From assembly GCF_030013595.1 (NCBI RefSeq), contig NZ_CP122768.1: a stretch of 64,000 nucleotides of DNA; one strand, given 5' to 3'. Numbering within the stretch: the first letter of the stretch is position 1; the number at the start of each line of letters is the position of its first letter. The DNA is from Escherichia coli (lineage in GTDB: Bacteria; Pseudomonadota; Gammaproteobacteria; Enterobacterales; Enterobacteriaceae). The position numbers and the translations under genes were made by a program. Below the pieces are notes generated by a model, which was not told the DNA's origin, searched no databases, and worked only from the letters and a program-made list of their open reading frames with translations. Positions 61,378 through 64,000 of this stretch are shown here, piece after piece.

Positions 61378-61401
61378 TTTTTCAGTAAGGAATTCAGGGG
61401 A

Positions 61402-62175
61402 TTGAACATCAGAACAGGGATGTGCGCTTTTTTATTGAGCTTAGTGCTGCCTGCACAGGCCACCAGCTTTACCGAATATCTGCCGATGAGTGACAGCGAA
61501 TACGCGCAAAAGCGGGCGCTGAAACCTCTCCTGACCATGCCTTATGATGCCGAGCAAAACTGGCATTTTAGAAAAGTCGGCGTTGCTGGCGTGACGCTTG
61601 AAAAGATGCCAAATGATGATAGTGAATGGCAATTGAACGGTAAAGATCGCGCCGGTAAATCCTGGTCTGTGCCTGTGGGGGTGCTGCAAAATATGGCGGG
61701 TAATGCGCAACTTTACCGTGCCGATCTTGATCGTAACGGCATTCAGGATCTAGTTATCTGGCGGGGTATTTCAGGAAATGGTCTGGCACCTAACGCGTTT
61801 TTGATTCTGATGACCTTTAATCAGCAAGGTCGCCCGTGTGTTTTTCAGTCCGATGGTTTTTATACCGCAAGTGAAACTGGCATTGATGATTTGCTGGATT
61901 TACAAAGGAATGGCCACACGCAATTGCTGGATATGCAGTTTGATTCCGGTTACTGGATAACCAGTCTGTATCAGGTAAAAGACGCCAAATGGCAGCGTGT
62001 TCACGGCTGGTTTGGCAAGTTAAGCTATCCCGCGCTCACGCGTTTTACTTATACCCCCAACCGTAAACTCGTCCTCAAACCCATCGCCGGGCGCGACCCG
62101 CAATCGGAAGATCTGGCGCTGACGCAGCGTTGCTTGATAAAGGGGGATGTGCTTTATGGGGTGAATCAGAACTGA
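61402..62175 (+). CDS. Uncharacterised exported protein (predicted signal peptide, no recognisable domain); start may be TTG 61402 or ATG 61420
   Basis: 257-codon ORF with E. coli-like codon usage; N-terminus MNIRTGMCAFLLSLVLPAQA|TSF looks like a Sec signal peptide; begins 25 bp after hycI stop with no intervening hairpin. Confidence 0.55.
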   Translation: MNIRTGMCAFLLSLVLPAQATSFTEYLPMSDSEYAQKRALKPLLTMPYDAEQNWHFRKVGVAGVTLEKMPNDDSEWQLNGKDRAGKSWSVPVGVLQNMAGNAQLYRADLDRNGIQDLVIWRGISGNGLAPNAFLILMTFNQQGRPCVFQSDGFYTASETGIDDLLDLQRNGHTQLLDMQFDSGYWITSLYQVKDAKWQRVHGWFGKLSYPALTRFTYTPNRKLVLKPIAGRDPQSEDLALTQRCLIKGDVLYGVNQN

Positions 62176-62237
62176 CTTTTTGCAGAGTGGCTATGTGGAT
62201 TTTGGGGGTAATTATATAGCGTACAAGTGTTTACATA

Positions 62238-62266
62238 TTGTGAACTTTGATTTGATGAGCTATAGT
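62238..62266 (+). promoter_or_regulatory. Candidate sigma70 promoter for the higB-like gene (TTGTGA-N17-TATAGT)
   Basis: -35 at 62238..62243, 17-bp spacer, -10 at 62261..62266, about 70 nt upstream of the toxin ATG. Confidence 0.35.
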
Positions 62267-62336
62267 TTCCGAACACATAAGGATAGAACTCGCAGATGTG
62301 GCTGTTTACTTACTATAAGGAAGTTAAAACTTAAAA

Positions 62337-62648
62337 ATGCACATCATTTCTAAAGCGCCATTTGAAGAGTGTGCGCGCAAATATCCTAACGACGCTCTGG
62401 CTCTACACTCATTGTATCGGGTTATTAAGGAAACGGATTTTTCTACACCAGAAGAAATGCGAACGGCGTTTCCCAACCTCGACAATTTTAGATATCGCAA
62501 CAAATGGTACGTTCTGGATGTCGGCGGGAACAATCTTAGGGTTATTGCCTACATAAACTTTGTTAATAAGCGGTTCTTTGTGAAGCACATAACGAATCAC
62601 GCAGAGTATGACAAACTGACACGTTACTACAGAGAGAACAAAGAATGA
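62337..62648 (+). CDS. HigB-like toxin (RelE/ParE superfamily mRNA interferase)
   Basis: 103-aa MHIISKAPFEECARKYPNDALALHSLYRVIKETDFSTPEEMRTAFPNLDNFRYRNKWYVLDVGGNNLRVIAYINFVNKRFFVKHITNHAEYDKL...; shares the FP.LDNF...VGGN.LRV...H.EYD pattern of E. coli HigB as I recall it. Confidence 0.75.
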   Translation: MHIISKAPFEECARKYPNDALALHSLYRVIKETDFSTPEEMRTAFPNLDNFRYRNKWYVLDVGGNNLRVIAYINFVNKRFFVKHITNHAEYDKLTRYYRENKE

Positions 62649-63064
62649 CTGCTAATGCTGCACGCGCTGTTAAAGCAACAAGAGAACTGGTCAATGCAGT
62701 CCCCTTTCTGGGAGGTAGTGACTCAGAAGATGATTATCGTGAAGCACTGGAACTGGTCGAATATTTGATTGAAGAAGATGACACCAATCCACTTATCGAC
62801 TTTCTGGCGAGCCGCATTGCAGAGTATGAAAGCAACAACGAAAAGTTTGCAGAGTTCGACAAAGCCGTTGCTGCAATGCCGGTTGGCGTGGCGTTACTTC
62901 GTACGCTGATTGATCAACATAATCTGACCTACGCGGATTTGAAGAACGAAATCGGCTCTAAATCCCTGGTCAGTCAGATTTTGTCTGGGCAACGATCCCT
63001 GACGATATCCCACATTAAGGCACTTTCAGCCCGATTTGGTGTTAAGCCGGAATGGTTTCTTTGA
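62645..63064 (+). CDS. HigA-like antitoxin (XRE-family HTH at C-terminus)
   Basis: 139-aa ORF overlapping toxin stop by 4 bp; C-terminal HTH LTYADLKNEIGSKSLVSQILSGQRSLTISHIKALSARFGV; N-terminal APFLGG...ALELVEYL like HigA. Confidence 0.75.
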   Translation: MTANAARAVKATRELVNAVPFLGGSDSEDDYREALELVEYLIEEDDTNPLIDFLASRIAEYESNNEKFAEFDKAVAAMPVGVALLRTLIDQHNLTYADLKNEIGSKSLVSQILSGQRSLTISHIKALSARFGVKPEWFL

Positions 63065-63090
63065 TTTTGACTGATGCCAAACCCAAGATT

Positions 63091-63120
63091 GCCCGATGCG
63101 CAACGCTTATCGGGCTTTCT
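63091..63120. terminator. Hairpin between convergent higA-like gene and ascB (gcccgat...atcgggc tttctt)
   Basis: 7-bp GC-rich stem with 11-nt loop and T-rich tail. Confidence 0.4.
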
Positions 63121-63142
63121 TGGTTCGTGCGACGGTAGTTAC

Positions 63143-64000
<858 letters not shown>

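What the first reader, a model, noticed from the sequence alone, without database searches (positions are those of the whole stretch)
62238..63064. HigBA-like module: toxin-first order, 4-bp overlap, own promoter
Gene order (toxin upstream of antitoxin), the 4-bp stop/start overlap and the C-terminal XRE HTH of the antitoxin match the HigBA subclass rather than RelBE. The toxin differs substantially from the K-12 HigB sequence as I recall it, so it looks like a paralogue acquired separately. A TTGTGA-N17-TATAGT promoter lies about 70 nt upstream.
Basis: partly seen in the sequence, partly recalled or inferred. Interest (0 to 1): 0.5.

Follow-up and report, generated by a model that had tools for sequence, protein, structure and literature searches.

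The report
Second HigBA-type toxin–antitoxin pair in E. coli
This is an ordinary two-gene toxin–antitoxin cassette of the HigB/HigA family sitting between hycI and ascB in about a fifth of E. coli strains; its closest studied relative is Salmonella SehAB rather than the K-12 HigBA pair, so how its toxin stops growth is still open.

Summary
A 103-aa toxin ORF (62337-62648) overlaps a 139-aa antitoxin ORF (62645-63064) by ATGA. TTGTGA-N17-TATAGT lies at 62238-62266.

The toxin belongs to Pfam PF09907 (HigB_toxin), the family of K-12 HigB (38% identity; model TM 0.93 to 5IFG). It shows no similarity to Rts1 HigB (PF05015). The antitoxin is 46% identical to K-12 HigA and has a C-terminal HTH_3.

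The closest studied relative of the toxin is Salmonella SehA (57%). All eight residues reported as needed for SehA toxicity are present. A 2026 paper reports that SehA inhibits RNase III and does not cut mRNA, so the toxin's target is unresolved.

The promoter hexamers alone are no better than chance. However, the -35 lies inside a palindrome, GTTTACA-TAT-TGTGAAC (62229-62245), that recurs in most (22 of 24) relatives examined. Most relatives carry a second copy 38 bp downstream, which E. coli lacks.

The locus is polymorphic in 5,426 complete E. coli genomes: toxin plus antitoxin in 1,091, antitoxin alone in about 1,417, and neither in the rest, including K-12. Relatives at 60-79% identity sit on plasmids, phages and prophages.

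RefSeq already annotates the pair as a HigB-family toxin. Interest is low.

The parts
62229..62245 (.). Putative HigA operator O1: the imperfect palindrome GTTTACA-TAT-TGTGAAC, which overlaps the -35
   Evidence: It is the only match in the window (0.05 expected). It is identical in A- and B-type E. coli alleles whose flanks do not align. The same 7-3-7 palindrome sits at the -35 in 19 of 24 relatives. Binding was not tested.
62238..62243 (+). -35 hexamer TTGTGA
   Evidence: It corresponds to TTGTAA/TTGTCA inside O1 of the relatives.
62261..62266 (+). -10 hexamer TATAGT, with a 17-nt spacer
   Evidence: Relatives have TATGAT, TATCAT, TATAGT or TATACT at the same distance from O1. It is invariant in five A-type alleles.
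62267..62336 (+). Predicted 70-nt interval between the -10 and the start codon (the leader, assuming a start site near 62273). It has no second operator. It contains a 12-codon uORF (62296-62334) and the SD-like AAGGAAG (62317-62323), 13 nt before the ATG.
   Evidence: Relatives have only 12-19 nt between O2 and the ATG. The leader's resemblance to an O2 is not significant: 3-30% of shuffles score as well. The B-type allele lacks 8 nt between the SD and the ATG. The uORF was read. The transcription start site is not mapped.
62337..62648 (+). higB/sehA-like toxin gene, 103 aa
   Evidence: PF09907, 80.7 bits against a cut-off of 27. Identity is 38% to K-12 HigB and 57% to SehA. The AF2 model has pLDDT 92 and TM 0.93-0.94 to 5IFG/6KML. 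RefSeq names it 'type II toxin-antitoxin system HigB family toxin'.
62645..63064 (+). higA/sehB-like antitoxin gene, 139 aa, overlapping the toxin gene by ATGA
   Evidence: HTH_3 at residues 85-138. Identity is 46% to K-12 HigA over 134 aa and 45% to SehB. The eight SehB residues needed for repression are conserved.
63091..63121 (+). Terminator-like hairpin GCCCGAU...AUCGGGC followed by UUUCUU
   Evidence: The fold gives -28.2 kcal/mol with z = -3.9. The same hairpin follows hycI directly in K-12, so the cassette lies between hycI and this hairpin.
62176..63074 (+). Approximate extent of the cassette relative to the K-12 empty site
   Evidence: The K-12 spacer jumps from the end of the upstream 251-aa ORF (...CTGA) to TGCCAAA.... 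ACTGA occurs at both edges, 62171-62175 and 63070-63074.

Best explanation
This is a chromosomal type II toxin-antitoxin operon of the PF09907 HigB family. That family includes K-12 HigB/YgjN and Salmonella SehA.

Shown by computation:
- The toxin gene comes first and is coupled to the antitoxin gene by an ATGA overlap.
- The toxin has the K-12 HigB fold, including the C-terminal helix.
- The antitoxin is a full-length HigA/SehB homologue with a C-terminal XRE helix-turn-helix.
- A sigma-70-like promoter has its -35 inside a conserved palindrome.

Inferred from studied relatives:
- A HigA dimer binds the palindrome GTTTACA-N3-TGTGAAC and represses the operon.
- HigA also binds and neutralises the toxin.
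- When HigA is degraded, free toxin shuts down protein synthesis and growth stops.

The way the toxin does this cannot be settled from sequence. [quoted passage not shown] I put about 40% on the K-12 HigB mode, which is cleavage of ribosome-bound mRNA. The rest goes to both modes, neither, or a silent toxin.

The E. coli copy looks attenuated. It has one operator where relatives have two, a long leader, and a poorly spaced ribosome-binding site. The toxin gene is dispensable: it is deleted in many strains that keep the antitoxin.
For: - Family and fold: PF09907 at E = 9e-23; best PDB hits are K-12 and Shigella HigB and HigA; the AF2 model has TM 0.93-0.94 and rmsd 0.8 A to 5IFG/6KML.
- Conserved residues: all 12 invariant and 18 near-invariant family columns are kept.
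- Architecture: a 103-aa toxin, a 4-bp overlap and a 137-139-aa antitoxin recur in 22 of 25 relatives from other genera.
- Selection: non-synonymous divergence is 0.13-0.25 while synonymous sites are saturated at 0.67-0.95.
- Operator: paired palindromes 38 bp apart flank the -10 in 20 of 24 relatives. The half-site is GTTYACA in this clade, GTTTTCA at sehAB and GTTGCCA at K-12 higBA.
- Published regulation: K-12 HigA represses its own promoter (PMC2814082), and SehB binds the sehAB promoter (PMC7160566).
- SehA link: 57% identity with no gaps, and Y53, D61, H88, Y91, K93, T95, Y97 and Y98 are all present (PMC12817084).
- Population: the toxin is intact and single-copy in 1,091 of 5,426 genomes.
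Against: - No experiment exists on this pair. No paper in the library names its proteins by accession.
- The promoter hexamers are at chance level on their own.
- The second operator is missing, and the SD-like element lies 13 nt from the ATG. Expression and autoregulation may therefore differ from relatives.
- The toxin gene is deleted in about 1,417 genomes that retain higA, and the whole cassette is absent from about 54%.
- The two candidate toxin mechanisms rest on one study each: in vivo cleavage assays for K-12 HigB, and a single 2026 study for SehA.
- The 2013 paper that first described SehAB is retracted.
- Fold and invariant residues (R68, H88, Y91, D92) fit either mechanism.
Confidence: 0.8

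Rival explanations
1. The toxin is a classical ribosome-dependent mRNA interferase like K-12 HigB. It enters the ribosomal A site and cuts the mRNA codon.
For: It has the same Pfam family and an almost identical predicted fold to K-12 HigB. K-12 HigB cleaved only translated mRNA in vivo (PMC2814082). The family-invariant R68, H88, Y91 and D92 are retained. To my knowledge an Arg/His/Tyr set is typical of RelE-type catalysis; this was not tested here.
Against: Identity to K-12 HigB is only 38%, against 57% to SehA. SehA gave no mRNA cleavage signature, and its toxicity needed RNase III (PMC12817084). Four residues needed for SehA toxicity (D61, K93, Y97, Y98) are shared with the window toxin but not with K-12 HigB.
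Confidence: 0.4
2. The module is a decaying remnant. The toxin is barely expressed or harmless, and what selection keeps is the HigA protein. HigA could act as a repressor or as an 'anti-addiction' antidote against incoming plasmid- or phage-borne relatives.
For: About 1,417 genomes keep higA with higB deleted, through at least two independent deletion junctions. The E. coli alleles have lost the second operator and have a long leader. The A-type allele has 8 extra nt between the SD and the ATG. Related toxins at 60-79% identity are common on plasmids.
Against: The toxin ORF is intact in all 1,091 genomes that carry it, and every row shown is annotated as full length. All family-conserved residues are kept. 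Differences between the A and B alleles are few and mostly synonymous. O1 and the -10 are invariant.
Confidence: 0.2
3. Its main role is abortive-infection phage defence or stabilisation of a mobile element, not stress-induced growth control. This role is compatible with the toxin-antitoxin mechanism above.
For: The toxin matches PD-Lambda-2_A (E = 2e-15), and the antitoxin matches the HigA-like part of PD-Lambda-2_B. PD-lambda-2 is a validated anti-lambda system (PMC9519451). Relatives lie in a phage-plasmid, in Cronobacter phage JK004, in Salmonella prophages and next to a CRISPR-cas3 locus.
Against: The locus has only two of the three PD-lambda-2 genes, and its antitoxin lacks the peptidase domain. 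In E. coli it sits at one fixed chromosomal site with no mobile-element genes nearby. No phage data exist for it.
Confidence: 0.25

Closest known systems
E. coli K-12 HigBA (YgjN/YgjM; PDB 5IFG, 6KML)
   Same: The two share Pfam family PF09907, the toxin-first order, the ATGA overlap, protein lengths (104/138 against 103/139 aa) and fold (TM 0.93). Both antitoxins have an N-terminal toxin-binding/dimerisation part and a C-terminal HTH. Both promoters carry a 7-3-7 palindrome.
   Different: Identity is only 38% for the toxin and 46% for the antitoxin. The chromosomal site differs (fadH-rlmG against hycI-ascB). The operator half-site is GTTGCCA against GTTTACA. K-12 has two operators and a short leader. 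K-12 HigB lacks four of the eight residues needed for SehA toxicity.
Salmonella enterica SehAB (STM4031/STM4030.S)
   Same: SehA is the nearest studied toxin: 57% identity, 103 aa, no gaps, and all eight toxicity residues shared. The eight SehB residues needed for repression are conserved. Both have the ATGA overlap and the 7-3-7 palindrome layout.
   Different: It is not an orthologue. SehAB lies between an esterase gene and yiiD near fdhE, beside sehCD. The antitoxins are only 45% identical, and SehB is 142 aa. The operator half-site is GTTTTCA and there are two copies. The RNase III-inhibitor activity reported for SehA is untested here.
Plasmid-, phage- and prophage-borne HigBA of Enterobacterales (for example Enterobacter pJBIWA008_2, Leclercia, Cronobacter phage JK004)
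   Same: These are the closest sequences outside Escherichia and Shigella: 75-79% for the toxin and 76-81% for the antitoxin. Lengths and overlap are identical, and the operator half-site is the same GTTYACA.
   Different: They carry both operators 38 bp apart and a short leader, and they sit on mobile elements. The E. coli copy keeps only O1 and occupies a fixed chromosomal site. None has been characterised, as far as I could find.
Rts1 / Proteus vulgaris HigBA
   Same: It has the toxin-first gene order, a RelE-superfamily toxin and an XRE-HTH antitoxin.
   Different: The toxin belongs to a different Pfam family (PF05015) and gives no BLASTP alignment at E <= 100. According to PMC7160566, the DNA-binding domain in Proteus HigA lies at the opposite, N-terminal end of the protein, so the domain order is reversed.
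PD-lambda-2 anti-phage system (Vassallo et al. 2022)
   Same: The first gene is a HigB-like protein that matches the window toxin over its full length. The start of the second gene is HigA-like.
   Different: PD-lambda-2 has three genes. Its second protein is a fusion of about 400 aa carrying a peptidase domain and is itself the toxic part, and a third gene is required for defence. The window has neither the peptidase domain nor a third gene.

Membership tests
HigBA-type type II toxin-antitoxin locus (relBE-like locus with inverted gene order, as defined in PMC2814082) | The toxin gene is first and the antitoxin gene second, in one operon | tested here: met
   ORFs at 62337-62648 and 62645-63064 lie on the same strand with an ATGA overlap.
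HigBA-type type II toxin-antitoxin locus (relBE-like locus with inverted gene order, as defined in PMC2814082) | The toxin has the RelE-superfamily fold | tested here: met
   The AF2 model (pLDDT 92) has TM 0.93-0.94 to K-12 HigB and TM about 0.5 to YoeB and RelE.
HigBA-type type II toxin-antitoxin locus (relBE-like locus with inverted gene order, as defined in PMC2814082) | The toxin inhibits growth and the cognate antitoxin neutralises it | not testable with these tools
   This needs expression experiments.
HigBA-type type II toxin-antitoxin locus (relBE-like locus with inverted gene order, as defined in PMC2814082) | The antitoxin represses the promoter by binding an operator | tested here: inconclusive
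   A conserved palindrome overlaps the -35. Binding was not measured, and the second operator found in relatives is absent.
Pfam PF09907 HigB_toxin (K-12 HigB / SehA family) | The HMM score exceeds the gathering threshold | tested here: met
   The score is 80.7 bits against a cut-off of 27, E = 9.4e-23. K-12 HigB and SehA hit the same model.
Pfam PF09907 HigB_toxin (K-12 HigB / SehA family) | Family-invariant residues are retained | tested here: met
   I4, P38, L48, D49, G64, L67, R68, F75, H88, Y91 and D92, and all near-invariant columns, are present in a 27-sequence alignment.
Pfam PF09907 HigB_toxin (K-12 HigB / SehA family) | The partner is a HigA with an N-terminal toxin-binding domain and a C-terminal XRE HTH | tested here: met
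   Identity to K-12 HigA is 46% over residues 6-139, with HTH_3 at 85-138.
Rts1 / Proteus vulgaris HigB (Pfam PF05015) | Sequence or profile similarity to the Rts1 toxin | tested here: not met
   BLASTP gives no alignment at E <= 100. There is no PF05015 hit, and the PDB search finds no Proteus HigB entry.
Salmonella SehAB | Residues required for SehA toxicity (Y53, D61, H88, Y91, K93, T95, Y97, Y98) | tested here: met
   All eight are identical at the same positions, with 57% overall identity (residue list from PMC12817084).
Salmonella SehAB | Orthologous chromosomal position (fdhE - sehCD - esterase - sehAB - yiiD) | tested here: not met
   The window pair lies between hycI and ascB.
Salmonella SehAB | The toxin binds and inhibits RNase III and is not a nuclease | not testable with these tools
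   This needs pull-down, rnc-dependence and RNA-end mapping experiments.
PD-lambda-2 defence system | Three genes: a HigB-like protein, a HigA-peptidase fusion and a P4-antitoxin-like protein | tested here: not met
   The antitoxin is 139 aa and covers only positions 9-115 of the 402-position PD-Lambda-2_B model. The next gene is the convergent ascB.

The most novel reading that the evidence does not exclude
The E. coli toxin, and with it the whole plasmid- and phage-borne clade at 60-79% identity, might not be an mRNA-cutting 'HigB' at all. It might instead be a SehA-type protein inhibitor of RNase III. That would make RNase III inhibition a widespread, horizontally mobile toxin activity hidden under the HigB annotation. 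This E. coli pair would then be a convenient second test case in the organism where RNase III is best understood.
Probability: 0.4. Interest if true: 0.5.

Novelty: new member of a known kind. Interest (0 to 1): 0.25.

Why it matters
As a gene call it adds little, because RefSeq already labels the toxin as HigB-family in more than a thousand genomes. It has three modest uses.

1. It corrects the obvious homology transfer. The nearest studied relative is SehA, for which a non-nuclease mechanism was recently claimed. 'mRNA interferase HigB' may therefore be the wrong functional label for this paralogue and its many plasmid and phage relatives.

2. Three sub-families use the same operator frame, GTTnnCA-N3-TGnnAAC, and differ only in the central dinucleotide: TA/CA in this clade, TT at sehAB and GC at K-12 higBA. 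That gives a directly testable rule for how paralogous HigA repressors could avoid cross-talk.

3. The hycI-ascB site shows a natural series of intact pair, antitoxin alone and empty scar across thousands of genomes. This is a clean example of how chromosomal toxin-antitoxin loci decay, with the toxin lost first.

Tried and rejected
- NCBIfam gave no usable hit for either protein.
- I looked for a second operator or a remnant of one in the 70-nt leader. The best local alignments to the O2-SD-ATG segment of relatives are matched by 3-30% of shuffles, so I dropped the idea of a duplicated, decayed O2.
- Obtaining the SehA sequence took several attempts. The genome scan with peptide patterns returned 19 loci but no Salmonella sehAB. 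A metagenome scan with a primer-derived 27-mer found nothing. A search with a SehB fragment rebuilt from published primers found only truncated products in error-ridden assemblies. A clean copy finally came from a Salmonella Infantis contig in the phage collection. It was verified by locus-tag notes and by exact matches to published primers.
- The Salmonella proteins at 66-69% identity (P0030 and others) are prophage-borne copies with a 139-aa antitoxin. They are not SehA.
- I considered and rejected membership of the Rts1 HigB family and of PD-lambda-2.
- Literature searches by protein accession and for orphan HigA in E. coli found nothing on this locus.
- I did not establish whether the K-12-type and this higBA pair co-occur in the same genomes.

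Full report
**What is in the sequence**

The window end carries hycG, hycH and hycI, then a 251-257-aa ORF of unknown function, then the pair in question, and then the convergent ascB. The first ORF of the pair runs 62337-62648 (103 aa) and the second 62645-63064 (139 aa). The stop of one and the start of the other share ATGA. TTGTGA (62238-62243), a 17-nt spacer and TATAGT (62261-62266) lie 70 nt upstream of the first ATG.

**Family assignment**

- The toxin matches Pfam PF09907 (HigB_toxin) at 80.7 bits against a cut-off of 27. The antitoxin has HTH_3 at residues 85-138.
- In the PDB, the only significant sequence hits are HigB and HigA of E. coli K-12 and Shigella (5IFG, 6KML, 5YCL).
- BLASTP gives 38% identity to K-12 HigB over 99 residues and 46% to K-12 HigA over 134 residues.
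- An AlphaFold2 model built on 27 homologues (pLDDT 92.3) superimposes on K-12 HigB with TM 0.93-0.94 and rmsd 0.8 A, including the C-terminal helix 88-100. RelE, YoeB and ParE-type toxins follow at TM about 0.5.
- The Rts1/Proteus HigB sequence, which I verified against PDB 4MCT, gives no alignment at all and belongs to a different Pfam family, PF05015.
- A 2025 classification lists PF09907 and PF05015 as separate toxin-first, ribosome-dependent families of the RelE/ParE superfamily (PMC11980606).

The pair is therefore HigBA-like in the K-12 sense, not the Rts1 sense.

**The nearest studied relative is SehAB**

A literature search surfaced Salmonella SehAB (STM4031/STM4030.S), described as 40%/46% identical to K-12 HigB/HigA. 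I recovered a clean copy from a Salmonella Infantis contig. Its annotation cross-references STM4031 and STM4030, and it contains published sehA primers exactly.

The window toxin is 57% identical to SehA over all 103 residues, without gaps. The antitoxin is 45% identical to SehB.

A 2026 paper reports three things about SehA (PMC12817084). SehA shows no endoribonuclease activity. Its toxicity depends on RNase III, whose dsRNA-binding domain it binds. And Y53, D61, H88, Y91, K93, T95, Y97 and Y98 are required for toxicity. All eight residues are present at the same positions in the window toxin, whereas K-12 HigB has four of them.

By contrast, K-12 HigB was shown in vivo to cleave only translated mRNA (PMC2814082).

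Across 27 family members the invariant columns are I4, P38, L48, D49, G64, L67, R68, F75, H88, Y91 and D92, and the window protein has them all. These data do not discriminate between the two activities. I therefore leave the toxin's target open, leaning slightly to the SehA mode because of the higher identity and the shared D61, K93, Y97 and Y98. The 2013 paper that first described SehAB is marked retracted. I rely on it only for the locus description, which I confirmed independently.

**Promoter and operator**

The hexamers alone are at chance level. The comparative evidence is stronger.

- E. coli carries two alleles of the region upstream of the toxin gene. They cannot be aligned except for the ribosome-binding region and 19 nt, GTGTTTACATATTGTGAAC (62227-62245), which are identical in both. 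In the second allele the palindrome extends to 12 of 13 matching pairs.
- In five sampled alleles of the window type, spanning 92.6-100% identity, this stretch, the -10 and the ribosome-binding region are invariant while nearby positions vary.
- I examined 24 relatives from Leclercia, Enterobacter, Kosakonia, Mangrovibacter, Pantoea, Mixta, Kluyvera, Citrobacter, Photorhabdus, Xenorhabdus, Rahnella and Salmonella prophages. Twenty of them have two 7-3-7 palindromes, GTTYACA-N3-TGTRAAC, exactly 38 bp apart. The first contains the -35 (TTGTAA). A TATNNT -10 lies between the two. The second ends 12-19 nt before the ATG.
- The same architecture exists at sehAB with half-site GTTTTCA and at K-12 higBA with GTTGCCA. 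The shared frame is GTTnnCA-N3-TGnnAAC.
- K-12 HigA represses its own promoter, and SehB binds the sehAB promoter in gel shifts (PMC7160566). The eight SehB residues whose mutation abolishes repression are all conserved in the window antitoxin.

I infer that 62229-62245 is the HigA operator. This is an inference, not a measurement.

The E. coli alleles lack the second operator. The leader's resemblance to one is not significant. The window-type leader has 8 extra nucleotides between the AAGGAAG element and the ATG compared with the other allele.

**Population picture**

Counts are from 5,426 complete E. coli genomes.

| Feature | Genomes |
|---|---|
| Antitoxin gene present | 2,508 |
| Toxin gene present | 1,091 |
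| Window-type upstream region | 747 |
| Alternative upstream region | 343 |
| K-12-type higB at >=80% coverage | 2,822 |

The gene is always chromosomal and single-copy. About 1,417 genomes therefore carry an orphan antitoxin, produced by at least two different deletions: 62199-62609 in one and 61584-62615 in the other.

K-12 has neither gene. Its 159-bp hycI-ascB spacer keeps the first and last few bases of the upstream 251-aa ORF and the sequence after the antitoxin gene, with short repeats at the junctions. The hairpin after the antitoxin gene (63091-63121; -28 kcal/mol, z = -3.9) is the one that follows hycI in K-12. The cassette therefore lies between hycI and this hairpin, which looks like the hyc terminator, and may also be read through from the hyc operon. 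That last point is an inference.

**Origin**

- The closest relatives outside Escherichia and Shigella are 75-79% identical. They occur on chromosomes of other genera and on 1,040 plasmid records, mostly from Klebsiella, Serratia, Leclercia and Enterobacter.
- Others lie on a phage-plasmid, in Cronobacter phage JK004 and in Salmonella prophages.
- Against these relatives, synonymous sites are saturated while non-synonymous divergence is 0.13-0.25 in both genes. Both proteins have therefore been under purifying selection.

**Defence link**

PADLOC models of PD-lambda-2 match the toxin over its full length and the antitoxin over its HigA-like part only. PD-lambda-2 is a three-gene system with a HigA-peptidase fusion, so the window pair is not a member. 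Still, the homology and the phage-associated relatives keep a defence role possible.

**Verdict**

This is an ordinary type II toxin-antitoxin pair that RefSeq already annotates. The useful additions are:
- the correct sub-family, PF09907, with SehAB as the nearest studied relative;
- the resulting doubt about the 'mRNA interferase' label;
- a conserved operator that gives real support to the promoter call;
- the allelic series at this site.

Noticed in passing
window 61420-62175 (+): A 251-aa ORF (257 aa from an upstream TTG) lies between hycI and the toxin gene. Its N-terminus looks like a signal peptide (MCAFLLSLVLPAQA/TS). It has no hit in Pfam, NCBIfam, PHROGs or PADLOC. It is present in 1,464 of 5,426 E. 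coli genomes, as two alleles at about 99% and about 88% nucleotide identity to the window.
   Followed up: partly
L005 (K-12 MG1655) 4416-4573, compared with window 61378-63143: The 'empty' hycI-ascB spacer of K-12 is a deletion scar. It keeps the first and last bases of the 251-aa ORF and the sequence after the antitoxin gene. Short repeats sit at the junctions: GGGATGTGC at 61417-61425 and 62144-62152, and ACTGA at 62171-62175 and 63070-63074.
   Followed up: partly
window 62296-62334 (+): A 12-codon upstream ORF (MWLFTYYKEVKT*) ends 2 nt before the toxin start codon. Its stop codon lies within 8 nt that the alternative E. coli allele lacks. Whether it is translated or couples to the toxin gene is unknown.
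   Followed up: no
L003 3965-4034 and L004 4005-4029 (orphan-antitoxin alleles): In the orphan alleles the promoter and operator are deleted together with the toxin gene. Only the last 27-35 nt of the toxin gene remain upstream of higA. The antitoxin must then be transcribed from upstream, presumably from the 251-aa ORF or the hyc operon.
   Followed up: no
L011 / L017 (Mixta tenebrionis), upstream of the toxin gene: Here the module directly follows a CRISPR-like repeat (GTGTTCCCCGCGCCAGCGGGGATAAACCG) and lies beside a cas3 gene. It has only the promoter-proximal operator.
   Followed up: no
L038 666-1268 (Salmonella Infantis): The sehAB locus has a second, unrelated toxin-antitoxin pair (sehCD, annotated RelE family plus Xre) on the opposite strand, one gene away, as the literature states.
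   Followed up: no
PMC12817084 compared: The SehA paper describes the C-terminal helix alpha4 as absent from other HigB/RelE toxins. However, the K-12 HigB crystal structures superimpose on the model over 99-100 residues, including that helix. The helix is therefore a PF09907 family feature and not specific to SehA.
   Followed up: partly
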